40,216 nt of DNA from an uncultured bacterium. GTDB taxonomy: Bacteria; Fidelibacterota; Marinisomatia; SCGC-AAA003-L08; GCA-002704045. Position 1 is the first letter of the stretch; each line of letters starts with the position of its first letter. The stretch lies in contig CAYTPF010000001.1 of NCBI GenBank assembly GCA_964439775.1, positions 761-40,976 on the forward strand, given 5' to 3'. Below, piece after piece: positions 3,001 through 39,000 of the stretch. Under the pieces are notes generated by a model, which saw nothing but the letters and a program-made list of their open reading frames with translations, did no database searches and was not told where the DNA came from. The position numbers and the translations under genes were made by a program.

Positions 3001-6000
3001 CGCCATCCACGGAAATTCCGGTTGCTGTTTCGCTTTCCAACGTGAAGAAGTTCTCAGCTGGAATGATGCTTGCTTCTTGTCCGTCATAGGCCCACTCGAG
3101 GCGCATGCGATCACTGCCGTCTTCTTCGAACATTTCCAATTCGAAGGGATACAGACTTCCACTTTGCATCGTGAAGGTGCCTGAACTGCTATACGACTCG
3201 TTATCAGAGGAAACAGACTGGCTCCAGTTATTGAAGACCTCCGTACCCCCGATCGTTAGCCGGGCGCCATCATCATGGTAACCGTGGAAAGTGATCTCTC
3301 CATCAGCGGGCGCCTGAATAAGACCCGTCCACCTTACGGCAATATCACTATATGCACGGGTCAGCGTAATAGTATCGATGCCTTCGCCGAGATTGATGAG
3401 AGAGTAGTCGTCGACACCTGTGAATGTGAATGAGGAGTTGAGATCATCACCGAGGGTTGTGGCGACACCTTTGGTTCCGTCGGCGGAGAAGCGCTGGGCC
3501 CGGATGTCGTAGCTGGAGCCGCCGCTATGGCCGCTGCTGTCCTGCCAGGTGACCACGAAACCACCATCGACGAGGGCGGTAACCGACGGCTCACTCTGGG
3601 TGCTGCTATTATATGTGTTAACCCGGAACTCATCGTTGAACGGGGTTCCATCAGCGTTATAGATCTGGCCACGGATATCTGAGGATCCGTCGTTGTACCA
3701 GGTCACGACGAAACCACCATCGGCAAGCCCGGTTACGGAAGGCGTATATTGATTATTGGAGATATAATCGCTGACAATCGGCATCTCATCGCCGACCGGG
3801 CTTCCGGCGGCATCGTAGCGCTGACCCATGATGGTATATGAGTGGTGTTGGTCGCCGTAGTAGGACGCGTAAGTGACGATAAAGCCGCCGTCACTCAAGT
3901 CTGCAACCGACGGCGCATACTGAGTGTGATAGGTGCCGTCATTGACCCGGAAATCAGACCCGGCTTCTACCGGTGTCGTCAGCGCATCACCATTGGCATC
4001 CTTGGTGGTGAAGATCTGCGCCCGGATATCATCGCTTGAGCCTGTCGTTGCGTCGTCGCCGCTCTTATCATGAGAGCTGCCCTGAGAATCCCGCCAGGTG
4101 ACCACGAACTGGCCGTTACCAAGTCCGGCGACCGAAGGCTCATACTGAGAGCCGGTGTCCGCATCGGCATTGATCAGGAACTCATCGCCCACCTTGACAG
4201 AGTTGGCATCAAAGCGCTGGCCGAAGACATCGACACCGGAGCCCTCACGGGAATCTGTGGCACCATTGTTATCGCGCCAGGTCACGACAAAGCCGCCGTC
4301 ATCGAGACTGGCGATTGACGGATCGTACTGATCGTCGTCAATCGTCGTATGGATCTGGAACTCGCCACCCTGTGGCTCGCCGGAGGCACTGTAGTGCTGG
4401 CCGTAGACACCGTAGCTGCTGCCCGCATCTTGGTACCGCGAGCCCCAGGTGATGACATAACTGCCGTCTTCGAGGCTCGTGACTTCCGGGTTCCTCTGGG
4501 TGTGACCCGTGTGGGTGTTGACCCGGTACTCGCCGCCAATGGGATCGCCGAGAATATTATAGTTCTGGGCATAGACGTCGTCCCGGTTCTCATCGTACCA
4601 GGTGGTGACAAAGTTGCCGTCACCATAGGCGCTCACCGAAGGATTGTGCTGGTCCCCACTGATGTTGGCATTGACCATGAACTCGCCGGTCTCGGTGACC
4701 GAAACCGTCAGTTCAGCGCCGTCGTCAAAACGGAGCATCTCGATGTCATACAGGGTATCGGTACCCTCGTTACCGTCCGCGACATTAAGATCGGTCACCG
4801 TCATCGTGGCGAGATTGATGGCGTAATCAGAAGCGTCCCCAAGGAACGTGGCAACGTCATACCCTTCGCCACCGCGGAGGATGTCGTCACCAAGGCCACC
4901 GCTCAGAATATTGTCGTTGGCATTGCCGAAGATCTCGTTGTCGGTCGCGCTACCGATACCAGTTATTGACAGCTCGCCGCTGAGATACAGCTCTTCGACG
5001 TTGTCCCAAAGGGTCGTCGTCTCGAGCGCCGAGTAGACGGTATCGATGCCACCGTTGGCACGCTCGATAACCGTATCATTGAGGTCGGCTTCGCTGATGC
5101 TGTACGTATCGTTACCGTCGCCACCCTCCAGCATATCCGATCCGGCACCGCCGCTCAGGAAGTCATGCCCGGCGCCGCCCTCAAGCGTGTCGTCACCGAT
5201 GTTGCCGGTTAGGACATCGTTACCGGAACCGCCGACCAGCTGATCATCGCCAGTTGCGCCATACAGATGATCGTTGCCGGTACCACCATCCACATAGACG
5301 CCGGCATCACCCTTGACTTGAACAAAGTCATTGCCGCCACCCAGATCGACCGTCTCAACATTCGTCACCGTCAGCGTATCCCGGGCATCCCCGAAGGTCA
5401 GGGTATCGATGCCGGCACCAAGATCGACATTGAGGCCGAGCTGACCATCGGCCAGGAAGATGTCTTCATTGGCAGCTGTGCCGGTCAGTTCGGCCTGGCT
5501 CGCCGGCGTACCGTCGCTGTCGAACCGTCTGGAGAACACGCCGTAGCTGTGATCATAGCTGCCGGAACTGTTCGGGCTGTCCCTGTAATCGGACATCCAC
5601 GAAACCGCAAATCCGCCATCGGCAAGAGCCGCAATCGAGGGCTGGTTTGAATTGTATGAATTATCGGGATCAACTTCGATCTCGCCGCCGACCTTGGTGC
5701 CGTCCGCATTGAAGACCTGGGCTCTGATATCGTCATTATTGCCGTTGTACCAGACGGCGACAAAGTTGCCGTTGGTCAGCGTGGCAACGTAAGCGTCACT
5801 CTGAGTACTGTTGGTCGTCGAGTTGATCTGGAACTGATCCCCCGACATGGATACGGCGTCTTCGCCTTCAACGTTGCTGGTGGTAAACACCTGGCCGAAG
5901 ACACCCCAACCGCTGGTGTCCGTACCCGGACGGTTGGCATGGGTCGTCTCATCTCCCCAGGTAACGACAAACTGACCGTTGTCGAGCCCGGTGACATCCA

Positions 6001-9000
6001 CTTGGGACTGATTGCCGCTCGTCCAGGTATTGACGGGGAACTCATCACCACGAACCTCACCGTCCGAACCGTAGCGTTGGCCACGAATACCATAGCCAGA
6101 AGTATCGTCGCTATCTTGCGAGGTATTGTCTTGCCAGGTGATGACAAACCCGCCATCCGACAGAGAGGCCACCGCCGGATGGGTCTGCTCTCCTGACGTA
6201 TAGGTATTGACCCGGAACTCACTACCGGAAGGTGTGCCATTAGCATCGTAACGTTGGCCATAAATACCGTAGTCGCTGCTACCCGTATCCTGGTAGCGCG
6301 AGTGCCAGGTGACCACATAGCCGCCGTCAGCCAACGCCGTGACTTCCGGTCCTGTCTGATCGTCGTAAGTCTGGGTATTGATCAGAACTTCCGGACCCTG
6401 AGCAACACCGCTGGCATTATAGAGCTGGCCGCGCACATCCCAGCTCTCTCCACCACCAATCTGATTGTTAGAGCCACTGCTGTCCTGCCAAGTGATGAAG
6501 AAGCCGCCGTTCTCAAGACCGGTAACTTCCGCCCGCTCCTGTTCGTTCCCTGTCCAGGTATTGACCTGGAACTCTTCGCCAAGAGGTTGGCCGCTGGCGC
6601 CATAGCGCTGGGCAAAGACACCGTCACCGGAGCCGTCCTGATTATAGGATTCCCAAGTAACGACATAACCGCCGTCGGTCAGTCCGGCCATGGACGGCTG
6701 CTGTTGGTGGCCTTCAATGTAGGTATTGACCTGGAACTCTTCGCTGTCTGTCGACGTAAACGTGACTTCGGTTCCGTCACCGAAGCGGACGCTCTCAATA
6801 TCTCTGAGCGTATCCGTACCGCCGTCACCGTCTGCGGTGTTGGCGTCGATGATCTGGCTGTTGGTTACGTCGACCCTGTACGCGTCCGCATCACCCTCGA
6901 AGACGGCGACATCGTCACCCTCGCCACCGTCCAGCACATCGTCACCAAGGCCTCCGACAAGCGTATCGTCGCCAGCCTGACCCTGCAGATGATCGGCACC
7001 GTCGCCACCCGACAAGACATCACCACCAACGCCGCCAATCAGAAGGTCATCGCCGTCATCGCCGTAGACCGATGAGCCAATCTTTGCCGTGCCGGAGACG
7101 ACAATCTCCGCATTAAACGTATCCTGCGTAACACTGGCACTGCCCAGGGTTACGGTCTGAACCGCGTTATCACTGAGCGTTCCACCATCAGTTGCGGTTG
7201 CAGTCAGAGCAAACGACGTACCCTCACCCGCGCTCAGAATAACTTCGTTAACACCGCCGCCGGTCGTCGCCGTTACGTCGAGCCCGGCTCCGTTCACGGC
7301 CGACACCAACTGTTCTCTGACATCGGTCATGGTGTCGCCGGCGACCGCCGTGTACGTCACATCCTGATCATCAAGGGTCAGCGTGTAGCTATCGCCCGCT
7401 TCAATGTCGCCGAACAGACGAACCGCTTCGAGGGTGGAGCCGGTGATATCCGCTGACTGGGCCGAAGAAGCAAACGTGACGGGGGCACCGCTGGCATCGA
7501 AACGGTGGCCGTAAATGCCGTAGCCATTGCCATCCTGTCCGGCCGATTCCCAACTGACGAGGAAGCCGCCATCCACAAGAGCCGTCACCGACGGATCCTG
7601 CTGGCTTCCCTGGGTCTCTGCATTGACCCGGAACTCACCACCGACCTCGACACCTTGGCTGTTGTAAAGCTGGCCATAGACGCCGTAGCCGCCGCCGTCC
7701 TGCATGCTCGACCAGGTTACGACAAAGCCCGCATCCGTCCCGGTCAGGCCGGTGACGTCGTGCATCTTCTGGTCGCCGGCAATCTCTGTATTGGCCAGGA
7801 ACTCACCGCCGACCTTGTTGCCGTTCTGATCAAATACCTGACCCTGAATGTCGTAACCGCTGCCGTCATTGCTGGTGGTGTTGTCTTCCCAGGTAACGAC
7901 GAAGCCGCCGCCGTCCAGGCGGGCAACCTCAGGCTGATAACTTGAGCTGTGCTGACTGACTTCGAACTCGCCGCCTTGTGGGCTGCCGTCCCGGTCAAAG
8001 ATCTGGGCGAAGGTCTTGTTGTGGCTGTCGGAATACCACGTCACCACAAACCCGCCACCATCCAGATCCGTAACGGATTGCTGATACTGGTTGCTGGAAG
8101 TCGTGGTATTGACCCGGAACTCATAGCTCTCGGCTTCGCCTTCCGCATCATACATCTTGCCGTAGACGCCCCAGGTGTTGCTCGAGTCCTGGTAGTAGGA
8201 ATCCCAGGTGACAACGAAGCCGCCGTTATCAAGCGCCGCAATCGAGGGCTCCTGCTGATCCCGATTGGTGTACGTGTTGACCTGGAACTCGTCACCCTTC
8301 GCCGTTCCGTCGGCACCGAACCGCTGACCGAAGATACCGTTGTAGCTATCGTTCTGGCCCTGCTCTTGATAGGTGCCCTGCCAGGTGACGACAAAGTCAC
8401 CGCTCTTCAGTGCCGTGACACTCGGTTTAGTTTGCTGTGCGCTCGAGTTCGAATTGTACGTATGGACCTGGAACTCACCGCCCAGCATCGCGCCGTCGGC
8501 ACTATGGAGTTGCCCGTAGATCCCGTATCCGCTGCCGTCCTGGCTCTCGGATTCCCAAGTCGTCACAAAATTGCCGTCTTCCAGACGCGTCGTCGACGGG
8601 TTCTGCTGATCGCCATCAGTATAGGTGTTGATCTGGAACTCGTTGGCGCCCGATACCATGGACGTCAGCACCAGTTCGCTGGCGCTATCGCCACCGCCGG
8701 CCGTGACCATGGATGCCGCCTGGGCATCGGTATTGATTGCGCCCACCAGGCCGGCCCGGACCTCGACAAGCGTGTCACCCGGCTGTGTCTCATAGCTGAC
8801 GTCATGGCCGTTAACGGTGACCGTGTAGATATCCCGGACCTCACCCGAAAGCGTGATCTTGCTGACCTGGCTCGCCACCACGGTTCCGTCGATCGTCACC
8901 ATGTCATCGCCGTCACCTGCATTGACGATCTCGGTATCGCGGACGATCGCCGAATCGTCACCATCACCGAGAGTGATGGTGTCGTTGCCGGCGCCAAGAT

Positions 9001-12000
9001 CGATCAGCAGGTTGGTCGCACTCGCAACCGCCTCCGTATCGTCACCGTCCGTTCCGGTGTACAGCGTCATCTCCGCCGGCGTCGCACCCGGCGTATCGCC
9101 GGTCATGCTGACATCGAAGCGCTGACCGTAAATACCGTAACCCGAACCATCCTGACCGCTGGATTCCCAGGTGACCATGAAGCCGCCATCGGCAAGAGAG
9201 GCTACCGACGGGTCGACCTGCTGGCTCGAAATATAGGTGTTGGCCATGAACTCGTCGCCAACCGGCGTGCCCGTGATGTCGAACAACTGACCGCGAATAT
9301 CCGAGCTGGATCCACCGTTCTGGCCACTGTCGTCCTGCCAGGTGACAACAAAGCCAGCGTTCGTGCCCTCAAGAGCCGTCACCGACGGCAGGTACTGGGA
9401 ACTGCTGGTCCAGGTGTTGATCCGGAAATCCCCACCCAGGGCCTCCGGCGTTGTTAACGCATCACCATTATCGTCAACCGTGGTAAAGATCTGGCCGCGA
9501 ACGTCGTAGCTGGAACCCGTTGTGCTGTCGTTATCGTTCGTGTCGTGGTAGCTGCCATGGTCATCACGCCAGGTAACGATGAACTTACCATTGCCGAGAT
9601 CAGCCATCGCCGGCTCGTACTGCGCGCCGCTGTCCGCATCGGCATTGACCAGGAAGTCCTCGCCGACCTTCTCACCCGCCGCATCAAAGCGCTGACCAAA
9701 GACATCAATACCGCTGCCGCCATCATGGCTGCCGCCATTGTTATCACGCCAGGTGACGACAAAGCCGCCGTCCGACAGAGAGGTAATCGCCGGATCATAC
9801 TGACTGCCCGACGTATAAGTGTTCACCAGAATCTCGTCGGCGGACACAATCGGCGTATCGACCGGATTGCCGTCCGCATCCGTCACGCTCACAATCTTGG
9901 CGAAGATGTCGTGGCTGGAGCCGCCACGTGAACCCGCGTTGCCGTCGTCATCGCGCCAGGCCACCGCAAAATTACCATCCGCAAGTGCCGTGATCGAACC
10001 TTCGTACTGGCTGCCGGAGGTATAGGTATTGACGATAAACTCACTGCCCTGCGCCGATCCCGTTGCATCATAGCGCTGACCAAAGACGCCGTAGTCCCAG
10101 CCACCGGCGTCATAGAGACCGTCCCAGGTAATGACGAAGCCGCCGTCCTCGAGCGCCGTGATATCTGGCCGCTGCTGATAATAATAAGTCTTCGTATTGA
10201 CCTGGAAGCTCTCGCCCGAGGGCAATCCGGAAGGTCCGTACACCTGGGCGTAGATGCCCTGCTGACTACCATCCTCGCCATAGGAATCCCAGGTCACCAC
10301 GTAGCCGCCGTCGGCAAGGCCGGTAACCGCCGGGTTGAGCTGGTCATTCATGCCATAGGACGTATTGACCTGGAACTCTTCCAGGGTCTCGGTCGTATAA
10401 CCGGCGGTCTGCGTCGTCGAGCCTGTATCGGTCGTCGTCGTCGTCGTCGAACCGCTGCCCGATCCCGCACCTTGCGCCGCCAGAGCATCTACCGCGTCCG
10501 CTTGCGCCGAAACCGCAGCCGCATCAACCGCTTCACCCGCCTGCGCCGCGCCACTTTGTTGCGCGGCAACGCCGCTCGCCGAAAGCGCGGCATCGGGAGC
10601 CGATACTTGATAGTCGGTCACCGTGACCAGGCCGCTGAGCGTCGTCACAGCACTATCCGCCGTGTGTGTCAGGGTCGTGTCAGTACCATCGTCCCCAATC
10701 GCGTAGTCGCCGTCATCAAACCGCAGCGTCTCGATGCCATAGAGCGTATCGGCATCGCCGGCGCTATCCGTCACCGTCAGGACGCCGGCCTCGACCGTCA
10801 CCGTGTAGTCCGTGAAGTTCCCGCCGAAGATCGCGATATCGGCGTCCGCACCCCCAGCAAGGATGTCACGGCCTTCACCACCAATCAGGGTATCGTCGCC
10901 GTCACCGCCGACCACCGTGTCGTCGCCGCCGCCACCACGGACGAAGTCGTTACCATCACCGCCCTGGAGAATGTCATCGCTGTCGCCGCCGTAAAGGGCA
11001 TCGTTCCCGGCTTCACCGTCAACCCGCGCACCAAGCGCATCACCGGCGCTGAACACCTGGGTCGCATTTAGTGCGCCAGCACCCGTCGCATCCACCGACA
11101 GACTGAACTGCTGCGGCTCACCATTGGCATCAAAGCGGCGGGCGTAGATATCTGTGCTTGAACCGCCACGGTCGCCGCCGCTGCCATCATGATCGGCCCA
11201 GGAAATCAGGAAGCCGCCGTCGTCAAGCCTACTGATTGTCTGCTCGTTCTGCGTCCCCGAAAGATGCTCATCGTTGGCGACAATCTCATCACCAACCTTC
11301 TGAGGCGTGCCGCTGACCGGATTACCATTAGCATCCGTGGTCGAGAAGGCCTGGCCGTAGACGTCTCCATTCCAGTAATACCAGGCAACGGCAAAGCCTT
11401 CGTCTGTAGCCGTAACCTCGGGATATGCCATATGGATGTCCATCGAGGTATTGATCCGGAACTCGTCACCGTCCGGGGCCCCGGTTGCGTCGTAGCGCTG
11501 ACCGAAGACACCGTAATGGGAGCCGCCATCAACGCTCGAATGGGTCGAATGGCTGGTCCAGGTGACAACGAAACCGCCGTCATCAAGCGAGGCAACCGAC
11601 GGGTATTCCTGGGTTCCCGATTTGGAATTGATGACCGTACCGTTGCTATTCTGCGTTGCGCCGTCGCCGCTGGCGTTGACCAGAAACTCGTCAATGCCCA
11701 CAACCGGTGTGTCTACCGGGCCGTTACTGCCATCCGTGGTCGTGAATGTCTTGGCAAAAATATCGTGACTGGATCCCTCGCGACCATCCGCACTGCCGTC
11801 TGAATCTTCCCAGGTCACCACAAAGCCATCACCGTGCGCGGCTATCGAGGAGTGGTACTGGGTCCCGCCGGCGTAGCTGTTGACCAGGAACTCGGCACCC
11901 ACTTCCGTACCCGTCGCGTCATAGCGCTGACCGTACACATCCGTGCCACTTCCTGGGTCTGCATTATTGCTGCCTTCGTTATCACCCCAAAGGATGACAA

Positions 12001-15000
12001 ACCCGCCGTCCTGCAACGCCGTGATCTGAGGATCATTTTGCGTGCCGCTGACGGCCGTGTTGACCAGGAACTCATCGATCTGGGTGATCGGCGTATCAAC
12101 AGGCGTTGCGCCGTCGTGCGTCGTGAAGATCTTGGCGCGGATATCTGTGCTGCTGCCGTCCCCGTGACCGCTGTCGTCCTGCCACGTCACCACGAAGCCG
12201 TCACCATGCGGGGCTACCGATGCATAATACTGAGTGCTGCTTGTATAGCTGTTGACCATGAACTCATCGCCAACCGCCTGTCCGCCCGCATCGTAGCGCT
12301 GACCGAAGACACCGCTGCTATCTTGAGCACCACTCCCATGCCAAATAACAACGTAGCTACCATCGCTCAGCGTTGTGCTTGATGGATCGTTCTGACTGCT
12401 CGATACGTAGCTGTTGACCCGGAACGCACCGGCGCCGGCCTCATTGGCCCGCACAATAATGTCATCAGAGCCGTCACCGATCATCGCCGTGACCGCTGCC
12501 GACACATCGGCATCGCCGTTGATGGCATCAATCAGGCCGGCGCGCACCTCGGCGACATCGTCGCCGGCCGCAGCCGTATAAGTCACCGTCGTGCCGTTCA
12601 CGGTCGCCGTGAAGTCTTCACCCTCGGCAACCGTGCCGCTGATCGTCATCCGGTCCGTCTGGTGCGCGAAGTTCTCACCGCTAACAACCGCCAGGTCGTC
12701 GCCACCACCGAGGTTCACTTCTTCGACATTGGAGACCGTGATCGCATCTGCCTGATCGCCCAAGTCGACCCGGTCGATACCGTCACCAAGATCGATGCTA
12801 ACGCCGCTCTGGGCCGCATCGAAGACCAGTATCTCGTCCGCCGAACCGCCAATCAGCTTCGCTTCCGTCGCCTTACTGCCGTCGGCGTTGAAGTGCTGGC
12901 CGTAAATGCCGTAGGAACTGGAGTAATCCTGATAACGCGATTCCCAGGTGACGACGAAGCTGCCATCGTCGAGAGCCGTCACCGACGGATCTTGCTGATC
13001 ATGGCTCGTATAACTATTAACCCGGAACTCAGAGCCCTGCTCGGCACCGGTGGCATTGAACACCTGACCATAAATACCGTAGCCCGAACCATCCTGGTTG
13101 CTGGATTGCCAGGTGGCAACAAAGCCACCCTCACTCAACGCCGTCACCGACGGATAGCTCTGGGTGCTGCTCGTATAACTGTTGACCCGGAACTCGGAGC
13201 CCTGCTCGGTACCATCGGCATTGAACATCTGCGCATAGACGTCCGCACGTCCACCGTCGTACCAGGTGACGACAAACGCATCATCGGCAAGCGCCGTCAC
13301 CGACGGATAGTACTGCTCACTGGACGTGGTATCGGTGTTGACCAGGAACTCACCATCACTGTGCGGCGTGCCGTCAGCTGCGAAGCGCTGACCGTAGATG
13401 CCGTACTGGCTGCCATCCTGGCCGTTCGACATCCAGGTGACGATGTAACCGCCGTCACTGAAACTGGTCACCGACGGTTGTTGTTGATGGTTATTGGTAT
13501 GGGTGTTGACCTGGAACTGACCGCCCGCAACCGCTGTCGGCGTATCCACACCCGTTGTCGTAAACTGCTGGCCGAAGACAGCGTAGTTGCTGCCATCGGT
13601 GAACCCGGCGTCTGTCCGGGTCGTATTGCCCGCCTCATCGCCCCAGGTCACAACAAAGTTACCGCTGCCAAGATCCGTCACCGATGGATGATGTTGGTCA
13701 CCCGACGTGTAACTGTTGACAGCAAACTCATCGCCCAACATCTGTCCATTGCTATCAAAACGCTGGCCAACGATGCCGTAGCCAGCATCATCGTAATCGG
13801 CAATGTCGCCATCTCGTGTGCTGTTCGATTCCCAGGTAACGACGAAGCTACCGTCGCTCAGCCCCGTAACCGATGGCTCGCTTTGGTGATTATGCGTATC
13901 GGTATTGACCCGGAACTCCTCACCAAGGGCTTCGCCGCCGTTGGTATAGAGCTGGCCGTAGGTGTTGTAATAGCTCCCGTCGTCGTCCTGGTTATAGGAT
14001 TGCCAGACCACCACATAACCGCCGCCAGCCAGCTTATCGACCGATGCATTGACCTGATGGTTGTGTGTAAAGGTGTTAACCCGGAACTCGTCTTCCGCAT
14101 CACCGGAGAAAGTCAGCTCGCCGTCATTGAACTGGATCGTCTCGACGTCCTTACCCAGCGTGTCGGTGCCATCATCACCGTCGGCAAGATCACCGTCAGT
14201 AATCGTCCGGTTGGTCATGTCGAGGCGGTAGTCCGACATCTCTCCGGAATAGAGAGCAACGTCATCTCCGTCGCCACCGGCAATCATGTCATCACCGGCA
14301 CCACCGATCATCACATCATCACCGGAACCGCCCTGGATCAGGTCGTCACCAATGCCACCATCAATGCGGTCGTCGCCACTACCGCCCTGAAGCTTGTCCT
14401 CACCAGCGTCACCTTTGAGAACGTCATCGCCACCCGAACCGGCAATCCGGTCATCACCATCACCACCGGACAGGTTGTCCGCAGCACCGCCGCCTATCAG
14501 TGCATCGTCACCATCGCCGCCGTAGACGGCGCCGAAGGTATCGGTGCCGCTGAGCTCATGGCTGACCGTCGCCGCATTGTCATCCGTGCTCGCCAGCGAT
14601 GTCGTGTTCTGGGTGCTGCCGCTGGCCGCAAACGTCGCTCCCGCCGTCGTCGCCGTCAGGATGATCTGGCCGTCTTCGGAACCCGCGCTCGCCGTCACCG
14701 TTGTGCTGATCGTAGCGTCGGCATCAAGACTGGTTAGTAAGCTGTCGCGAATGTCGGCAATGCTCTCACCCGTCGAGACCGTGTGGGAGACACTGTCGCC
14801 ACCAATGCTGAGTGTGTAGCTGTCACCCGCCTCGATGGTACCAGCAACCGTCACCTGGCTGACCTGGTTCACATTGGCACTGGTGTCACTGACCGTCGTT
14901 ACCGTCGCGCTGTCCGCCGGTGCAACCGACGTCTGCAGGGCTGTCCCCGCATCAACGGTGCTGAGAACGATCGTCGAAGCACCCTCGCCTTCGGCCCTGA

Positions 15001-30000: not shown

Positions 30001-33000
30001 CCGTCGTGCCGTTCACGGTCGCCGTGAAGTCTTCACCCTCGGCAACCGTGCCGCTGATCGTCATCCGGTCCGTCTGGTGCGCGAAGTTCTCACCGCTAAC
30101 AACCGCCAGGTCGTCGCCACCACCGAGGTTCACTTCTTCGACATTGGAGACCGTGATCGCATCTGCCTGATCGCCCAAGTCGACCCGGTCGATACCGTCA
30201 CCAAGATCGATGCTAACGCCGCTCTGGGCCGCATCGAAGACCAGTATCTCGTCCGCCGAACCGCCAATCAGCTTCGCTTCCGTCGCCTTACTGCCGTCGG
30301 CGTTGAAGTGCTGGCCGTAAATGCCGTAGGAACTGGAGTAATCCTGATAACGCGATTCCCAGGTGACGACGAAGCTGCCATCGTCGAGAGCCGTCACCGA
30401 CGGATCTTGCTGATCATGGCTCGTATAACTATTAACCCGGAACTCAGAGCCCTGCTCGGCACCGGTGGCATTGAACACCTGACCATAAATACCGTAGCCC
30501 GAACCATCCTGGTTGCTGGATTGCCAGGTGGCAACAAAGCCACCCTCACTCAACGCCGTCACCGACGGATAGCTCTGGGTGCTGCTCGTATAACTGTTGA
30601 CCCGGAACTCGGAGCCCTGCTCGGTACCATCGGCATTGAACATCTGCGCATAGACGTCCGCACGTCCACCGTCGTACCAGGTGACGACAAACGCATCATC
30701 GGCAAGCGCCGTCACCGACGGATAGTACTGCTCACTGGACGTGGTATCGGTGTTGACCAGGAACTCACCATCACTGTGCGGCGTGCCGTCAGCTGCGAAG
30801 CGCTGACCGTAGATGCCGTACTGGCTGCCATCCTGGCCGTTCGACATCCAGGTGACGATGTAACCGCCGTCACTGAAACTGGTCACCGACGGTTGTTGTT
30901 GATGGTTATTGGTATGGGTGTTGACCTGGAACTGACCGCCCGCAACCGCTGTCGGCGTATCCACACCCGTTGTCGTAAACTGCTGGCCGAAGACAGCGTA
31001 GTTGCTGCCATCGGTGAACCCGGCGTCTGTCCGGGTCGTATTGCCCGCCTCATCGCCCCAGGTCACAACAAAGTTACCGCTGCCAAGATCCGTCACCGAT
31101 GGATGATGTTGGTCACCCGACGTGTAACTGTTGACAGCAAACTCATCGCCCAACATCTGTCCATTGCTATCAAAACGCTGGCCAACGATGCCGTAGCCAG
31201 CATCATCGTAATCGGCAATGTCGCCATCTCGTGTGCTGTTCGATTCCCAGGTAACGACGAAGCTACCGTCGCTCAGCCCCGTAACCGATGGCTCGCTTTG
31301 GTGATTATGCGTATCGGTATTGACCCGGAACTCCTCACCAAGGGCTTCGCCGCCGTTGGTATAGAGCTGGCCGTAGGTGTTGTAATAGCTCCCGTCGTCG
31401 TCCTGGTTATAGGATTGCCAGACCACCACATAACCGCCGCCAGCCAGCTTATCGACCGATGCATTGACCTGATGGTTGTGTGTAAAGGTGTTAACCCGGA
31501 ACTCGTCTTCCGCATCACCGGAGAAAGTCAGCTCGCCGTCATTGAACTGGATCGTCTCGACGTCCTTACCCAGCGTGTCGGTGCCATCATCACCGTCGGC
31601 AAGATCACCGTCAGTAATCGTCCGGTTGGTCATGTCGAGGCGGTAGTCCGACATCTCTCCGGAATAGAGAGCAACGTCATCTCCGTCGCCACCGGCAATC
31701 ATGTCATCACCGGCACCACCGATCATCACATCATCACCGGAACCGCCCTGGATCAGGTCGTCACCAATGCCACCATCAATGCGGTCGTCGCCACTACCGC
31801 CCTGAAGCTTGTCCTCACCAGCGTCACCTTTGAGAACGTCATCGCCACCCGAACCGGCAATCCGGTCATCACCATCACCACCGGACAGGTTGTCCGCAGC
31901 ACCGCCGCCTATCAGTGCATCGTCACCATCGCCGCCGTAGACGGCGCCGAAGGTATCGGTGCCGCTGAGCTCATGGCTGACCGTCGCCGCATTGTCATCC
32001 GTGCTCGCCAGCGATGTCGTGTTCTGGGTGCTGCCGCTGGCCGCAAACGTCGCTCCCGCCGTCGTCGCCGTCAGGATGATCTGGCCGTCTTCGGAACCCG
32101 CGCTCGCCGTCACCGTTGTGCTGATCGTAGCGTCGGCATCAAGACTGGTTAGTAAGCTGTCGCGAATGTCGGCAATGCTCTCACCCGTCGAGACCGTGTG
32201 GGAGACACTGTCGCCACCAATGCTGAGTGTGTAGCTGTCACCCGCCTCGATGGTACCAGCAACCGTCACCTGGCTGACCTGGTTCACATTGGCACTGGTG
32301 TCACTGACCGTCGTTACCGTCGCGCTGTCCGCCGGTGCAACCGACGTCTGCAGGGCTGTCCCCGCATCAACGGTGCTGAGAACGATCGTCGAAGCACCCT
32401 CGCCTTCGGCCCTGACCATGGAACTCACATCCGGGTCGGCACCGATGGAACCCATCAGGCCGGCGCGGACGGCTGCAGCCGTATCACCCGCCTGAGCCGT
32501 GTAACTCACCGTATGTGTATCGGTGCCATCCGAGACGCTGAGGCTGTATTCCTCGCCCTGCGTAATGCTGGTCAGGTCAATCCGGTCAATCTGGTGCAGG
32601 CTGGCCACCGCATCGTGCAAGACGTCAACCGTCACCGTCGCATCATCGAGACCGCCCGCATTGTTAAACGCTTCAGCCGAAGCGAAGAAGGGGTTGGTCG
32701 AACCATCGACGCCAAAGCGCTGACCATAAATACCGTAACCCGAGCCGTCCTGGCCGCTGGATTCCCAAGTGACCATGAAGCCGCCGTCTTTGAGCGCCGC
32801 CACCGACGGATCATACTGATCGCTCGAGGTGTAGGTGTTGACCTGGAACTCGTCGCCGAAGGTGTTGCCCTGCGCGTCATAACGCTGACCAAAGATACCG
32901 TAGCTTGAGCCATCCTGACCGCTGGACTGCCACGTGACGACAAAGCCGCCGTCCAGCAAGGCCGTGACGTCTGGCTTTGTCTGCTCACTCGAGGTGTAGG

Positions 33001-36000
33001 TGTTGGCCTGGAACTCATTACCGTCCGTGCTGCCATCGGCGTTGAAGCGCTGGCCGTAGATGCCGTAGCCCGAGCCATCCTGACCGCTGGATTCCCAGGT
33101 AATGACGAAGCCGCCGTCGGCAAGGTCGGCAATCGACGGGTTGTACTGATCGTTGTTCGTATAGGTATTGACCTGGAACTCGGTGCCATCCGCATTGCCG
33201 TCGGCATCGAAGCGCTGGCCGTAAATACCGTAGTTGCTGTTGCCATTACCATTGCTGTCGAGGTCATCCTGGTAACGGCTCTCCCATGTGACCACAAAGC
33301 CGCCATCCTGGAGCGAGGCTATCGATGGGTCTTCCTGATTATTATACGTCTCCGTATTAATCTGGAAGGCATTACCCGCCTGTTCGCCATCCACATCAAA
33401 GCGCTGGCCGTAGACACTGTAACCGTCATCATCCCCGTAAGATGAACTTCCCACCGTCCAGGTTGTGACAAAGCCGCCGTCCTTAAGACCCGTAATCGAA
33501 GGCTGGGACGGTGAATAGTTCGCATCCGCAACGACAAACTCGCTGCCCGAAGGCGTGCCGTCCGCATCATAGCGCTGGCCGCGAAGGTCGTTATTGTTGC
33601 CGCTGTACCAAGCTGCGACAAAACCGCCGTCCTCAAGCGCCGTCACCGATACACTGTTCTGAGAGGAGTTGGTCAGGGTATTGACCCGGAACTCATCACC
33701 GATAGCATTGCCGCTGGCGTCATAACGCTGGCCATAGACACCTTCACCAGAACCGTCTCGGCCACTCTCATCGGTCCACATCACCACCACGCTGCCGTCA
33801 TTCAGCGTCGTCGCCGAAGGATCTTTCTGCGTGCTCGACGTGTACGTATTAATCTGAAACTCTTTCTGGACACCCGCTTCGCCGGCCCGGATCACGATCT
33901 CGTCGGCCGCGTCACCTGCCATGACAACGACCGCATCGGAAGCCCCGGCATTCAGCGCATCGATCAGGCCGGTCCGAACCTCGGCAATGCTATCGCCATC
34001 CTCGACCCGGTAGCTCACCTTCGTCGCATTGACCGTGACCGTGTAAACATCACCCGTCTCAATCGTGCCGGACAGCTTAACCACGTCCGTCTGGTGCGCC
34101 AGGTTGTCGCCGGTAACGACCGCCATATCATTGCCGTCACCGAGGTCGACCGTCTCCGTATTGGCCACCGCAATGCTGTCGTCGCCGGCGCCAAGCGTCA
34201 GCGTATCGATGCCGTCACCGAGATCGATGGCAAGACCGTCCTGAGCCGCATCAAAGATCAGCGTCTCGTCACCCGAACCGCCAATCAGCTTGGCATCACT
34301 GGCCTTCGTGCCGTCGGCATTGAAGTGCTGCGAGAAGATGCCCCAGTCGCTGGAGCCATTGTTATCTTGATACTCAGATTCCCAAGCGACAACAAAGCTG
34401 CCGTCGGCAAGCGCTGTCACCACCGGATCTTGCTGCGACTGATACGTCTCCGTGCTCACCTGGAACTCATCGCCAACCGGGACACCGCTGGTGTCATAGC
34501 GCTGGGCGAAGATCCCATATTCGTGACCGTCTTGATTGTAGCCTGCCCAGGTGACAACAAAACCGTCGCTGCCCAGGCTGGTCACCGTCGCGTCATACTG
34601 CGTACTACTTGTGTACGTATTGGCCTGGAACAAATCACCGTTCGGGACCGGCGTATCATCATCCGTTCCCGAAACCATCGTGAACTTCTGACCAAACACC
34701 GCCCAGTCGCTGTTATCGAACCCGGAACCCAGCTCATTCGAGCGGGAGTTGGTCGCCTCATCACCCCAGGTGACAACGAACTCGCCGTTGTCGAGGCCGG
34801 CCACCGAGGGCTGATGCTGATCGCGAACTGTCCGGTCCGCATTGACCATAAACTCGTCGCCAACCGTGTTGCCCGAAGCATCGAACTGCTGGCCGTAAAT
34901 GTTATAATAACCGCCGTCGCCATCCTGATTATAGGATTCCCAGACCTTCACAAAGCCGCCATCCGAGAGCGATGCCAAAGCCTCACCTGAGTTGGCACCC
35001 GGGTTATACTGATTGCTTGAGGTATAGGTGTTGACCTGGAACAGATCCCCGTCCGTCGACGGCGTATCGCCACCCACCGTCGTAAACTTCTGACCAAATA
35101 CCGCCCAATCGCTGTTGTCGAAACCGGAGCCCAGCTCGCTTGAGCGCGAGCTTGTGCTCTCGTCACTCCAGGTGATGACAAACTCACCATTATCGAGACC
35201 GGTTACCGACGGGTCATGCTGATCACGGATCGTCCGATCCACATTGGCCATGAACTCGTCGCCAACTGAACCGCCATTCGCATCAAAACGCTGACCATAG
35301 ATATTATAGTAATGGCTGTCGCCATCCTGGTAGTCCGACTCCCAGGTAACGACAAAACCGCCGTCCGACAGCGAGGCGATCGAAGGATCACTCTGGGTCT
35401 GATAGGTCGTGGTGTTAACCCGGAACTCTTCGCCGAGCGGCGCGCCGCTTGGCGTGAAGACCTGACCGCGGATGTCCGCGCCACTGCCACCATCATGACC
35501 ACTGTCGTCCTGCCAGGTCACCACATAGTTGCCATCGGCAAGACCCGTGATCGACGGATCATGCTGGGAGGAAGGCTCCCAGGTATTGACCTGAACCTCT
35601 TCCGCCTCGCTCGACAGCGTCAGTTCGCCGTCACTGAAGCGAACCGTCTCGATGCCATCCAGCGTATCCGTGCCGTCGTCACCATCCGTTGTATTGATAT
35701 CAGTGACCGTGCCGGCATCCGTATCCAGGCGGTAATCCGACATCTTCCCGGAGAACTCGGCAACGTCACTACCGTCGCCACCCTTCAACGTGTCGTCCCC
35801 GGCGCCGCCGATCAGGACGTCATCACCACGGCCACCCTTCAGCGTGTCGTTACCGCCAGCACCGTCGAGGATATTGGCCCCGCCGCTGCCTTCAATCACG
35901 TTCGCCGCGTCGTTACCCGTACCAGAGACCGCATCCGGACCGCTGAGATCCAGCTCTTCGATATTGTCACTCAGGGTGTAACTCTCACCCGTGCTGATCA

Positions 36001-39000
36001 CACGGTCTGCACCCTCACCCGTCAGTTCCGTCACCACATCGTCGGCACTGTTGACCGTATAGGTGTCGTCGCCGTCGCCACCAATGAGCGTATCCGCACC
36101 AGCGCCGCTGGTTATCCGATCATCACCGCTGCCCGCCGTAACGACAGCACCGGTCTCACCCTCGATCGTCAGCGTGTTGTCGCCTTCGCCAAGGTTGACC
36201 GTCTCCACATTCTCGACACGAAGCTGATCATCGCCGGCACCAAGCGTCAGGCTATCCGTACCCTCACCAAGATCAACCGCACGCTCATTCATCGTCTGAC
36301 TGAAGGTCACCGCTTCATCGGCAACGCCACCGGTAAAGCGGATCGTCGACAGCGGCAGGCCGTTGGCATCATAACGCTGACTGTAGATGCCTGAACCACT
36401 GCTGTCCTGTCCGTCCTCCGACGTCCAGGTGACAACAAAACCACCGTTATCGAGTGCCGCAACCGACGGATCATGCTGAGAAGAGTTGGTATAGCTGTTG
36501 GCCATGAACTCGTCGCCAACCGGCGTACCCGTACCATCAAACATCTGACCACGGATATCCGCACCGGAACCGCCATCATGGCCACTGTCGTCACGCCAGG
36601 TGACGACAAAACCGCCGTTATCAAGGGTTGTCACCGACGGCTGATACTGGGAACCCGACGTGTAATCGTTGATACGGAAGTCGCCGCCCAGGACCTGTGG
36701 CGTCAGGATCAGATCGCCATCATCATCGGTCGCAGTCGTCGTAAAGATCTGACCGCGGACATCGTAACCGGATCCTGTCGCGCTGTCGTTGTCGTTCGTA
36801 TCGTGTGAGCTGCCACTGTCATCACGCCAGATCACCACGAACGTGCCATTGCCAAGATCGGCCATCGCCGGCTCATACTGCGAGCCGCTGTCCGCATCGG
36901 CATTGATCAGGAAGTCGTCACCAACCTTCTGACCCGCCGCATCGAAGCGCTGACCAAAGACATCAATACCACTGCCACCGTCATGACTGCTGCCCTTGTC
37001 ATCACGCCAGGTGACGACAAAGCCACCGTCTGAGAGCGATGTAATCGCCGGGTCGTACTGGCTGCCCGACGTATAGGTGTTCACCAGGACTTCATCTGCG
37101 TCAACAATCGGCGTATCGACCGGATTACTGCTCGCATCCGTCGTCGTGAAGGTCTTAACGAAGATGTCGTTGCTGCTGCCGCCTTGGCCATCATTACTAC
37201 CGTCACTATCGTACCAAGCCACAGCAAAACCGTCACCGTGGGCAACGATCGCCGGATCATACTGCTCGCCCGAGACATTCGTATTGACGAGAAGTTCCTC
37301 GCCAATCATCTCGCCATCCACATCGAAGCGCTGAGCCCGAATGTCGTAGCTAGAACCGGCATCATGGCCGCTGTTATCACGCCAAGTGATGACAAACCCG
37401 CCGTCGTTCAGCGTTGTCACCGAGGGCTCATACTGATGGCTCGAGGTATAGGTGTTGACCCGGAACTCATCACCGATCAGCGCACCCGTCTCATTGAACA
37501 GCTGAGCTCGGATGTCGTAATTAGAACCGCCGCTATGGCCGCTGCTGTCCGCCCAAGTCACCACATACTTACCGCCGGCAAGGCCTGTCACTGAAGGCGT
37601 ATACTGCGTACCTGAGACGTACGTATTAACCTGGATCTCGCCGTCGTTATCGTCAGAGACTTCCAGTCGCTGACCGTCGGCAAAGGCAAGCGTCTCGACA
37701 CTCGTTAGGCTGTCCGTGCCGTCATCGCCGTTCGTTGTATCGACATCAGTGACCGTAATCGTCGTGCCATCTGCACTGGTCGTGACCCGGTAATCAGAGA
37801 TGTCGCCGGCGAACGTCGCCGTATCCGAGCCCGCGCCGCCATCAATCGTATCGTCACCGGCGCCGCCCGTTATAACGTCACTGCCCGAGCCCGCATTAAT
37901 CTGATCAACACCTTGGCCACCGTCCAGTGTGTCCATGCCAGACCCAGCGTTCAGGACATCGTTACCAGAGCCGCCAACGAGCGTATCCGAGCCAGAGCCG
38001 CCAATTAGGATGTCCTCGCCGGAACCGCCGTCCAATAAGCTGCCCGCGTTGTTCGCAAACAGGCGGTCGTCGCCACCCTCGCCAAAGACGTTGCTCGCCT
38101 CATCGCCCGCGACCGTAACAACATCAGCACCGCCACCCGCGTACACATACTCCGTGCCAGAAACAAAGAAGGTGCTGTTGATGCTTCCGGAAGCGGATGG
38201 CAATGCACCACCCCAGTCACCTTCAAAATTAATCGTCGTATCAATGCGTGTGCTGTATATCGAGCCGCTGTTGAAGTCGCCTGTGCTGCCAGTATTGGTG
38301 AAGTACTCGGCGCTCAATCCGCTGATATAATTATTGCTCTGGATCGTAATGAGGTCATCTACCGAAGAGCCAGTCAGTGTAATCCTGCCATCAAATGTAG
38401 ATGTCACCGACAAATCGCCATCATCGAACGAGAGCGTTTCCACCTCCAAAATTGAGTCAGTGCCCAAAGAAGGATCGATGTTCGCAATTGTCAGAGTGCC
38501 GTAATCATCGACGTTAAAGGTATAATCGGACTTATTGCCGGCATAAATTAGCGTATCTGAACCAGCCCCACCCGTAATCATATCGTTTCCGCGGCTCGCG
38601 GTTATAGTGTCGTCGCCAGCGTTCCCATCTATAACATCATCGCCATCACCGCCATTGATCGCGTCATTACCCAATCCGCCATCGATGAAGTCATTTCTCG
38701 TACTGCCAAGGAAGGTGTCGTTCCCGGATCCACCTTCGATACTCTCGATATTAACGAATGTATCCGAACCTATGTCAGTCCCGGTCGCACTACCCGTTGA
38801 CATATCAACATCGATGCTTGTGGAAATATCCCGGTAATCGGCGGTATCAAATCCGTCACCACCATCAATTTGATCATTTCCAAGACCACCACTGAAGTAG
38901 TCGTCTCCACCCGCCCCCATAAGAGTATCGTTACCGTCGGAGCCTTGAAGAATATCGTCGCCTTCACCACCATCCAGGAAGTCGTCGCCACCTGAGCCGG

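What the first reader, a model, noticed from the sequence alone, without database searches (positions are those of the whole stretch)
3360..38176. Perfect 17,402-nt head-to-tail duplication with a period of 17,415 nt (exactly 5,805 codons) inside the ORF
Positions 3360-20761 and 20775-38176 appear identical at every base. All ORF-track entries recur at +17,415 with identical sequences in multiple frames and on both strands, and my raw-sequence spot checks found no mismatch. Identity stops abruptly at 3359/20774 and at 20762/38177. The period is divisible by 3, so the giant ORF stays open and gains 5,805 residues, including nine complete seven-blade blocks. The older internal paralogues of the same gene are only about 75-90 % identical at the nucleotide level. 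A 17.4-kb stretch with zero divergence therefore means a very recent duplication, ongoing gene conversion, or an assembly/amplification artefact. If it is real, it offers a direct view of how giant repeat proteins grow by multi-kb in-frame steps, and it predicts copy-number polymorphism between strains.
Basis: seen in the sequence. Interest (0 to 1): 0.85.

Follow-up and report, generated by a model that had tools for sequence, protein, structure and literature searches.

The report
Identical 17-kb repeat in giant gene
A giant bacterial surface-protein gene carries two base-for-base identical 17.4-kb in-frame copies of a nine-propeller module, sitting inside a split sugar-binding domain; the arrangement is old and is most likely kept identical by recombination, not made by a fresh duplication.

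Summary
Window 3360-20761 equals 20775-38176 with 0 mismatches in 17,402 nt. The period is 17,415 nt (5,805 codons). It lies inside one minus-strand reading frame that stays open across all 40,216 nt.

The "very recent duplication" reading does not hold:
- The 13-nt joint is not a scar. It completes a normal inter-propeller linker.
- Four independent metagenome contigs at 92-94.5% nt identity carry the joint (dS about 0.25, dN/dS about 0.08).
- Homologues at about 44% aa identity run colinearly across it (…7-8-9-linker-1-2-3…).

The repeated unit is exactly the insert that splits a PA14 domain. Removing it in silico restores a full PA14. An orthologue at 79% nt identity already has the same unit-to-PA14 junction. 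A relative 99.4% identical has room for only one copy.

Best reading: an old two-period in-frame array, recently homogenised by recombination between the copies, with copy-number turnover. The assembly could still be wrong about exact identity or copy number, because no reads were available. Near-identical module repeats are common in this protein family. This 5,805-aa unit is the largest I saw. I rate it a new variant of a known kind, of moderate interest.

The parts
38321..40216 (-). N-side flank of the giant ORF. The ORF runs on beyond the window. This part holds RTX calcium-binding repeats.
   Evidence: Pfam HemolysinCabind, 12 stretches, E 1.3e-69. The frame is open.
38177..38320 (-). N-terminal fragment of a split PA14 domain (GLSAEYFTNTG...ALPSASGSIN; about profile positions 3-42).
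   Evidence: Joined in silico to the C-side flank, it gives PA14 positions 3-146 of 147 at 72.5 bits, against 64.8 bits for the C part alone. The join aligns end to end with solved PA14 domains 6qdi and 6qe7.
20775..38176 (-). Unit copy 1, upstream in gene sense (aa 681-6481). It holds nine 7-bladed propellers separated by linkers and RTX segments.
   Evidence: Identical to 3360-20761. Blade clusters. RTX is the only Pfam family hit in the unit.
24869..26083 (-). Propeller block 7 of copy 1, the block that was modelled. The same block in copy 2 is at 7454-8668.
   Evidence: AlphaFold2 model with pLDDT 85.8, pTM 0.89 and 27 strands. The Foldseek top hit is CylK 7fh6, TMq 0.74, E 6e-14. The 7-bladed lectin 6gxs scores TMq 0.70.
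20762..20774 (-). Joint J: 13 nt comprising the third base of a Thr codon plus GGT AAT GCG GAG (GNAE).
   Evidence: It matches neither outer flank. It aligns to the 'GdgdD' positions of the internal linker profile. It reads GTAE or GTAD in four independent contigs.
20684..20812 (-). Complete inter-propeller linker module, made of unit end + J + unit start (INLGEGIDTITLTGNAESTFFVSGTEYVYAGGGADVVTVAGDE).
   Evidence: The profile built from 5 internal linkers matches the joint over positions 2-43 of 44 at 40.7 bits. The N-junction matches only positions 19-43 (18.8 bits). The C-junction convincingly matches only about positions 2-13 (16.8 bits). Distant homologues are gapless across it.
3360..20761 (-). 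Unit copy 2, downstream in gene sense (aa 6486-12286).
   Evidence: Identical to copy 1. A relative contig (L001) is colinear with it at 99.4%.
3053..3359 (-). C-terminal fragment of the split PA14 domain (loop residues RAY, then SDIAVRWTG...; profile positions 43-146).
   Evidence: Pfam PA14, 64.8 bits against a cutoff of 24, residues 3-102 of the flank. The same junction occurs in L001 (98.5% nt), L160 (88.6% nt) and L003 (79.1% nt).
1..3052 (-). C-side flank: RTX repeats plus an unannotated domain of about 246 aa (window 1406-2143). The ORF continues beyond the window.
   Evidence: Pfam and NCBIfam find only RTX-type matches. In the relative, the gene runs on for at least 8 kb more and includes a second, intact PA14.

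Best explanation
The window is an internal piece of a giant secreted RTX-type surface protein of an uncultured marine bacterium. The protein exceeds 13,405 aa within the window and is probably over 20,000 aa in all.

One of its PA14 (carbohydrate-binding) domains is interrupted in a loop by a propeller array. The array is two periods of a 17,415-nt cycle. Each period is nine 7-bladed beta-propellers with their linkers, and the two periods are joined by a normal linker.

The array is old. The perfect identity of the two periods reflects a very recent round of recombinational homogenisation between them. That could be unequal exchange between sister chromosomes (2 to 3/1 to 2 copies), pop-out and re-integration of a one-period circle, or long-tract gene conversion. 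This is concerted evolution with copy-number turnover.

Shown:
- the identity and the open frame;
- the split PA14;
- the native character and the age of the joint;
- purifying selection across the joint;
- room for only one copy in a close relative.

Inferred:
- the recombination mechanism;
- that selection keeps at least 2 copies in some lineages;
- that the array entered PA14 as, or from, a pre-existing periodic or circular form.
For: Identity and frame:
- 0 differences in 17,402 nt; the frame is open.

The joint is a native linker, not a scar:
- J plus its flanks match the internal-linker profile over its full length (40.7 bits). Each outer junction matches only half of it.
- Homologues at about 50% aa identity are gapless across the joint.
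- Four homologues align with unit+unit in single colinear HSPs of 2,370-4,015 columns that span blocks 7-8-9, the linker and blocks 1-2-3.

The joint is old:
- It is present in L081, L082, L084 and L159, from four different assemblies, at 92.0-94.5% nt identity.
- dS is 0.25-0.27 and dN/dS is 0.08-0.085 across it.
- If the copies had evolved apart since then, about 1,100 differences would be expected. About 100 would be expected even on the time scale of the closest relative. None are seen.

The unit sits in PA14, and has for a long time:
- PA14 is restored by deleting the array in silico.
- The same unit-to-PA14 junction occurs in relatives at 98.5%, 88.6% and 79.1% nt identity.
- Blade motifs occur only inside the unit. 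There are none in 21.5 kb upstream or 11.7 kb downstream of it in the relative's gene.

Copy number varies:
- In contig_9980_pilon only 23,376 nt lie between the unit end and locus L083, which has no unit sequence. Two copies would need 34,817 nt.

The family shows the same tendency:
- 30 of 144 long representatives carry near-identical tandem module repeats.
- A homologue at about 44% identity has a 13,770-nt (3 x 4,590) period that is 99.4% identical over the visible 1,848 nt.

General background:
- Tandem repeats in bacteria expand and contract readily (PMC11721125).
- An RTX adhesin with about 120 identical repeats is known (PMC4083281, PMC5550230).
Against: - No reads were available. Exact identity and a copy number of exactly 2 rest on one assembly.
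- In no second genome are both copies resolved. The classical concerted-evolution comparison (copy 1 against copy 2 within a genome, versus between genomes) is therefore done for one genome only.
- The one-copy state of the relative could be an assembly collapse. The 13.8 kb between L001 and L083 was not read.
- The N-side junction (PA14 N part to unit start) was seen only in the window.
- Bacterial tandem duplications of 17 kb are normally lost quickly. Long persistence therefore needs selection or frequent re-expansion, and I did not test either.
Confidence: 0.6

Rival explanations
1. Assembly or polishing artefact in degree. The tandem arrangement is real, but the two copies are not truly identical because multi-mapped reads homogenised them during consensus or polishing. 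Alternatively, the true copy number is not 2.
For: - A 34.8-kb perfect repeat can be resolved only by reads longer than 17.4 kb that are anchored in the joint or the flanks.
- Repeat-rich adhesin genes are a known source of assembly error (PMC6868369, PMC5550230).
- A close relative's long-read assembly shows a different copy number. So at least one of the two assemblies, or the biology, differs.
Against: - The joint itself is independently confirmed four times.
- The window has no frameshift in 40 kb, which indicates a high-quality consensus.
- Near-identical repeats are common in this family across many independent assemblies.
- Identity ends exactly at the linker boundaries rather than fading.
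Confidence: 0.2
2. A fresh one-step tandem duplication in this lineage, with a 13-nt filler at the new junction.
For: - Zero divergence between the copies.
- The run of identity is 13 nt shorter than the period, which on its own looks like a filler junction.
Against: - The same joint, with homologous sequence (GNAE / GTAE / GTAD), is found in four contigs that are 5.5-8% diverged.
- The 'filler' aligns to conserved linker positions.
- The 'filler' lies within sequence that is contiguous in homologues at about 44-50% identity.
- The breakpoints coincide with the borders of the PA14 insertion. A random duplication would not do that.
Confidence: 0.05
3. Recent re-creation of the second copy from a one-copy allele. 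This could happen by homologous (Campbell-type) integration of a popped-out one-period circle, or by recombination with a two-copy allele from another strain. It is a special case of homogenisation in which the lineage passed through a one-copy state.
For: - The closest relative appears to have one copy.
- A circle of unit + J integrating into a resident unit gives exactly unit-J-unit, with identity of P-13 and unchanged outer junctions (inferred).
- Between the window and that relative, the unit is 0.57% diverged. The adjacent flank has patches of 4-8% divergence. This pattern suggests recombinational exchange in the region.
Against: - There is no direct evidence for circles.
- The data cannot separate this reading from unequal sister-chromosome exchange.
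- The flank patches lie in RTX repeats, which may exchange with paralogous repeats.
Confidence: 0.15

Closest known systems
Identical tandem extender repeats of RTX adhesins, e.g. Marinomonas primoryensis MpIBP/MpAFP region II (about 120 identical 104-residue repeats, more than 37 kb; PMC4083281, PMC5550230)
   Same: - A giant RTX-repeat protein. Type I secretion is inferred here, not shown.
- In-frame head-to-tail repeats identical at the sequence level.
- PA14 ligand-binding domains in the same protein.
- A repeat region that is hard to assemble.
   Different: - The unit here is 5,805 aa (nine different propellers plus linkers), not one 104-aa Ig-like domain.
- There are two copies, not about 120.
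- The array lies inside a PA14 domain rather than forming a separate region.
- The N- and C-terminal modules that define the adhesin class lie outside the window.
Bacterial tandem duplication-amplification with recombination-driven expansion and contraction (reviewed in PMC11721125)
   Same: - Head-to-tail copies of more than 10 kb with identical sequence.
- An apparent copy-number difference between close relatives.
   Different: - The event is intragenic and in frame, not a gene-dosage change.
- The joint is a conserved native linker shared by lineages with dS of about 0.25, so the array persists over evolutionary time rather than being transient.
Concerted evolution of intragenic repeats in surface proteins (own knowledge: alpha C / Rib proteins of group B streptococci, staphylococcal SD-repeat proteins; PMC3324548 covers the latter)
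   Same: Copies within a genome are identical although the arrangement predates strain divergence. Copy number varies between strains.
   Different: The unit is one to two orders of magnitude longer. No host-immunity context is known.
CylK-type calcium-binding domain plus seven-bladed beta-propeller (PDB 7fh6)
   Same: It is the best structural match of a modelled block (TMq 0.74, E 6e-14). RTX-like calcium-binding segments sit next to the propellers.
   Different: - Only 14% sequence identity.
- No test of catalytic residues.
- Here 18 propellers are strung in one chain.
- No Pfam or NCBIfam family matches the blades.
Nested domain insertions that involve PA14 (own knowledge: PA14 inserted into GH3 beta-glucosidases)
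   Same: One domain is interrupted in a loop by other folded modules, in frame.
   Different: Here PA14 is the host, not the guest. The guest is about 11,600 aa long.

Membership tests
Simple one-step tandem duplication | Two adjacent direct copies, head to tail | tested here: met
   3360-20761 equals 20775-38176.
Simple one-step tandem duplication | The run of identity equals the period, and the junction consists only of the two breakpoint sequences | tested here: not met
   Identity is 17,402 nt against a period of 17,415. The 13 nt in between match neither flank.
Simple one-step tandem duplication | The junction is novel, i.e. absent from relatives and outgroups | tested here: not met
   The joint is present in four contigs at 92-94.5% identity. 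Homologues at about 44-50% identity are contiguous across it.
Concerted evolution of a tandem array | Copies within a genome are more alike than the same region between genomes, although the array predates the split | tested here: met
   0% divergence within the window, against 5.5-8% to joint-bearing relatives with dS 0.25-0.27.
Concerted evolution of a tandem array | The same pattern in a second genome with both copies resolved | not testable with these tools
   Joint-bearing relatives are contigs of 1.3-2.2 kb. The only long relative contig seems to have one copy.
Concerted evolution of a tandem array | Copy-number variation among relatives | tested here: inconclusive
   The relative contig_9980_pilon has room for at most 1.34 units. 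However, 13.8 kb of it was not read, and assembly collapse cannot be excluded.
PA14 domain (Pfam PF07691) | Profile match above the curated threshold | tested here: met
   The C part alone scores 64.8 bits against a cutoff of 24. The reconstructed domain scores 72.5 bits over positions 3-146 of 147. It matches solved PA14 domains with E 2.7e-27.
PA14 domain (Pfam PF07691) | A contiguous domain | tested here: not met
   About 11,606 residues lie between profile positions 42 and 43. A second PA14 in the relative's gene is intact.
RTX adhesin / type I secretion substrate | RTX nonapeptide repeats | tested here: met
   HemolysinCabind with E 1e-69 to 3e-81 in the flanks and 1e-27 to 1e-31 in the unit.
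RTX adhesin / type I secretion substrate | C-terminal secretion signal, N-terminal retention module, adjacent T1SS genes | not testable with these tools
   The ORF is open at both window ends. The relative loci do not reach the gene ends.
Seven-bladed beta-propeller | Seven four-stranded blades closing a ring | tested here: met
   This rests on a predicted model only. It shows 27 strands with pLDDT 85.8 and pTM 0.89. Foldseek hits propellers: CylK at TMq 0.74 and lectin 6gxs at TMq 0.70.

The most novel reading that the evidence does not exclude
The 17,415-nt cycle (nine propellers plus one linker) behaves as a self-contained in-frame cassette. It can leave an array as a one-period circle and re-enter by recombination. 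It once landed in a PA14 loop with both ends at the same linker point. Giant surface proteins of this family would then grow and shrink in multi-kb, multi-domain steps that selection keeps in frame. The split PA14 halves might still pair, turning the 11,600-residue array into a closed loop.
Probability: 0.15. Interest if true: 0.7.

Novelty: new variant of a known kind. Interest (0 to 1): 0.5.

Why it matters
If the identity is real, this is an unusually clear case of concerted evolution acting on a 17.4-kb, 5,805-codon coding unit inside a single bacterial gene.

- **Old arrangement, very recent coalescence.** The joint is shared at dS of about 0.25, and the linker is shared with homologues at about 44% identity. 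Yet the two copies show no differences at all.
- **How giant repeat proteins change length.** They appear to change by whole multi-domain periods rather than by single domains. Perfect identity therefore does not date a duplication.
- **An extreme domain insertion.** About 11,600 residues sit inside a PA14 loop, and the junction is conserved down to 79% nt identity.
- **A practical warning.** Copy number in such genes cannot be trusted from assemblies. Short-read MAGs break exactly at these units.

Tried and rejected
**Sub-period.** I looked for a fixed 1,935-nt sub-period (17,415 / 9) and found none. Blades recur at about 165 nt with indels, and the blocks differ in length.

**Locating the source genome.**
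- It is not among the GTDB species representatives. The best hits to the joint query were 46-57% aa identical. One of those loci, L003, turned out to be a 79% nt orthologue of the unit end.
- It is also not among the representatives clustered at 50% identity. The best there was 48%.

**Walking up the relative contig.**
- A 3,270-aa query timed out.
- The N-flank query returned only generic RTX proteins. The search for homologous proteins returns only hits whose length is within about 0.57-1.75 times the query length.
- The 13.8-kb gap between L001 and L083 therefore stayed unread.

**Ideas considered and dropped.**
- The unit start (STFFV...) might be a PA14 remnant, or a microhomology with PA14 SDIAV. 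Rejected: it aligns much better with the internal linkers, and the nucleotide similarity is at chance level.
- 'RAY' at the C-junction might be filler or a decayed J. Rejected: solved PA14 domains have loop residues there (SINQDQ-KFSVRWTG), so RAY is probably native PA14.
- A PA14-flanked unequal crossover would leave a hybrid PA14 at the joint. None is present.

**Family databases.** Pfam and NCBIfam give no family for the blades.

**Literature.** Searches found no description of this protein or of the split PA14.


Full report
**1. Observation**

Window 3360-20761 and 20775-38176 are identical at all 17,402 positions. Self-BLAST gives a single gapless 100% HSP. At the same offset of 17,415 nt, the sequence just outside these intervals is essentially unrelated. 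The 13 nt between the copies (20762-20774) match neither the sequence before copy 1 nor the sequence after copy 2.

The whole window is one open reading frame on the minus strand. It has 13,405 codons and no stop, and it is open at both ends. Every other frame has 100 to about 1,000 stops. The period is 3 x 5,805, so the frame is kept.

The protein is acidic, rich in Gly, Asp, Thr and Ser, and has no cysteine at all.

- The internal paralogues are 65-80% identical over at most 700 nt, not 75-90%.
- There is no regular 1,935-nt sub-period.

The 'nine seven-blade blocks' claim is right. Blade motifs fall into nine clusters of seven. A modelled block is a confident 7-bladed beta-propeller, with pLDDT 85.8 and pTM 0.89. 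Its best solved match is the propeller of CylK, at TMq 0.74.

**2. Anatomy in gene orientation (minus strand)**

| Protein residues | Feature |
|---|---|
| aa 1-680 | RTX repeats, ending in the first ~48 residues of a PA14 domain |
| aa 681-6481 | unit copy 1 |
| aa 6482-6485 | GNAE, encoded by the joint |
| aa 6486-12286 | unit copy 2 |
| aa 12287 onward | the rest of the PA14 domain, then more RTX repeats and an unannotated domain of about 246 aa |

The C-side flank alone matches Pfam PA14 positions 43-146. Joining the two flanks in silico gives positions 3-146 of 147 with a higher score. That joined sequence aligns end to end with solved PA14 domains 6qdi and 6qe7 at E 2.7e-27, without a break at the join.

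So the repeated unit is exactly the insert that splits a PA14 domain in a loop, just before the conserved 'xVRWTG' strand. If two ambiguous bases are assigned to PA14, the insert is exactly 11,605 codons.

Inside the unit, Pfam finds only RTX repeats. Neither Pfam nor NCBIfam has a model for the blades.

**3. The joint is a native linker, not a scar**

Five of the eight internal inter-propeller linkers share a module, roughly (I/V)DLGxGxDTLTLGxGDDxxxVxNxExVxLGxGxD. I built a profile from those five and scored the three junctions:

| Junction | Profile positions matched | Score |
|---|---|---|
| joint | 2-43 of 44 | 40.7 bits |
| N-junction | 19-43 | 18.8 bits |
| C-junction | about 2-13 (convincing part) | 16.8 bits |

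GNAE falls on the profile's 'GdgdD' positions.

Homologues at about 50% aa identity are gapless across the joint. For example, L007 reads ...DYSSIDFGAGEDTVTFVGDSNDTFFVVDAETVHAGGGDDVV....

When two units are laid end to end, four such homologues align in single colinear HSPs of 2,370-4,015 columns. These run from blocks 7-9 through the linker into blocks 1-3.

The adjacency 'block 9 - linker - block 1' is therefore ancestral. The derived breakpoints are the two outer junctions with PA14. Both lie at the same point of the linker, on either side of J.

This also explains why the run of identity is 13 nt shorter than the period. The array is two turns of a closed 17,415-nt cycle, opened at J.

**4. 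Age of the arrangement**

Four contigs from different assemblies carry the joint colinearly:

| Locus | Source | Length | nt identity | Joint reads |
|---|---|---|---|---|
| L081 | NCBI GCA_036230485.1 | 2,245 nt | 93.5% | GTAE |
| L082 | NCBI GCA_030741115.1 | 1,892 nt | 93.0% | GTAE |
| L084 | JGI Ga0115105 | 1,713 nt | 94.5% | GTAD |
| L159 | ENA ERZ2438579 | 1,351 nt | 92.0% | GTAE |

Across the joint, dS is 0.25-0.27 and dN/dS is 0.08-0.085, so the region is under purifying selection.

The unit-to-PA14 C-junction (…TITLT|RAYSDIAVRWTG) is older still. It is found in:
- L001, at 98.5% nt overall and 99.4% in the unit;
- L160, at 88.6%;
- L003, a GTDB representative MAG labelled uncultured Acidiferrobacteraceae. 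It is colinear over 6.8 kb at 79.1% and reads …ATFT|RANSDIGVRWSG.

In the relative's gene, blade motifs occur only inside the unit. There are none in 21.5 kb upstream or 11.7 kb downstream. A second PA14 further downstream is intact.

**5. What zero divergence means**

- If the two copies had evolved independently since the ancestor shared with the joint-bearing relatives, about 1,100 differences would be expected.
- On the time scale of the closest relative (55 differences in 9,571 nt), about 100 would be expected.
- None are seen.

The copies therefore coalesced very recently although the arrangement is old. This is the signature of concerted evolution.

The closest relative, contig_9980_pilon (541 kb), has only 23,376 nt between the unit end and locus L083. 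L083 contains no unit sequence. Two copies would need 34,817 nt. That assembly therefore holds one copy. Either copy number varies between close relatives or that assembly collapsed the repeat.

A one-copy allele has no joint and cannot regenerate it. The window's lineage must therefore have kept the two-period form or re-acquired it.

Mechanistically, the following would all give unit-J-unit with unchanged outer junctions and identical copies:
- unequal exchange between sister chromosomes;
- long-tract gene conversion;
- pop-out and Campbell-type re-integration of a one-period circle.

The data do not separate these. Expansion and contraction of bacterial tandem repeats is well documented (PMC11721125).

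**6. Family context**

The propeller/RTX family is very large. It has 22,224 representatives with E below 1e-30, many of them 3,000-7,900 aa long.

Of 144 representatives of at least 1,500 aa, 30 have long runs of exact 10-mers recurring at one offset. The periods range from 244 to 2,415 aa.

A homologue at about 44% identity (L002) has its first 1,848 nt repeated at its end with 11 real mismatches. The offset is 13,770 nt, which is 3 x 4,590. Contig merging may contribute to this.

Near-identical in-frame module repeats are therefore a habit of this family. The 5,805-aa unit here is the largest I saw.

The closest described parallel is the RTX adhesin MpIBP. It has about 120 identical 104-residue repeats and its own PA14 sugar-binding domain (PMC4083281, PMC5550230).

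**7. Caveats**

- No reads were available, so exact identity and a copy number of exactly two rest on a single assembly. Repeat-rich adhesin genes are known to be misassembled (PMC6868369).
- The N-junction was seen only in the window.
- No second genome has both copies resolved.
- The source organism is unidentified. Relatives are Tara and other marine metagenome bins labelled Pseudomonadota or Acidiferrobacteraceae, and one is probably mis-binned as Acidimicrobiales.

**8. Verdict**

This is a new variant of a known kind, namely concerted evolution of in-frame repeats in a giant RTX surface protein. It is remarkable for the size of the unit and for being nested in a split PA14 domain. Interest is 0.5.

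Noticed in passing
window 38177-38320 and 3053-3359: The two 'PA14 flanks' are the two halves of one PA14 domain, split between profile positions 42 and 43 by the whole 34.8-kb array. Deleting the array in silico restores a full-length PA14 that aligns with solved structures.
   Followed up: yes
L002 (PAPL01000003.1) 1-1848 and 13771-15618: A homologue at about 44% identity, from a different marine MAG, repeats its first 1,848 nt at its end. There are 11 real mismatches, and the offset is 13,770 nt (3 x 4,590). This is a second multi-kb in-frame near-identical super-repeat, though contig merging may contribute.
   Followed up: partly
proteins P0361-P0510: Of 144 family representatives of at least 1,500 aa, 30 have at least 100 exact 10-mers recurring at a single offset. 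The periods range from 244 to 2,415 aa. Near-identical tandem module repeats are common in this family.
   Followed up: partly
whole window, minus-strand frame 0: There is not a single cysteine in 13,405 residues. Gly, Asp, Thr and Ser make up 46% of the protein.
   Followed up: no
window 1406-2143 (minus strand; aa 12692-12937): A non-repetitive domain of about 246 residues (NVLSTYQVTYSPDYHH...) lies between RTX blocks. It has no Pfam or NCBIfam match. It is 98-100% conserved in Tara and ENA fragments P0001 and P0002.
   Followed up: no
window 2872-3089 versus L001: Between the window and its 99.4% relative, the unit differs by 0.57%. The adjacent PA14/RTX flank has dense patches of third-codon-position differences, 4-8% locally. 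The pattern looks like recombination mosaicism.
   Followed up: partly
L001 14009-14974: The relative's gene continues at least 8 kb beyond the window's 3' side in gene sense. That stretch includes a second, intact PA14 domain and then cadherin-like domains. Upstream (L083) there are RTX and cadherin-like/Big_9 domains. The complete gene probably exceeds 60-70 kb.
   Followed up: partly
window plus strand, e.g. 12662-14737, 7949-9457: ORFs of up to 691 aa lie antisense to the giant gene. They recur at +17,415 only because of the repeat. They are most likely by-products of the codon composition, not genes.
   Followed up: no
L159, and proteins P0123, P0125, P0127, P0129: Several short ENA contigs of relatives end in peptides such as LSLIHI, CLLYTSPSPRD and MCIRDS. 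I recognise these as translated sequencing-adapter sequence, so those contig ends are not biological.
   Followed up: no
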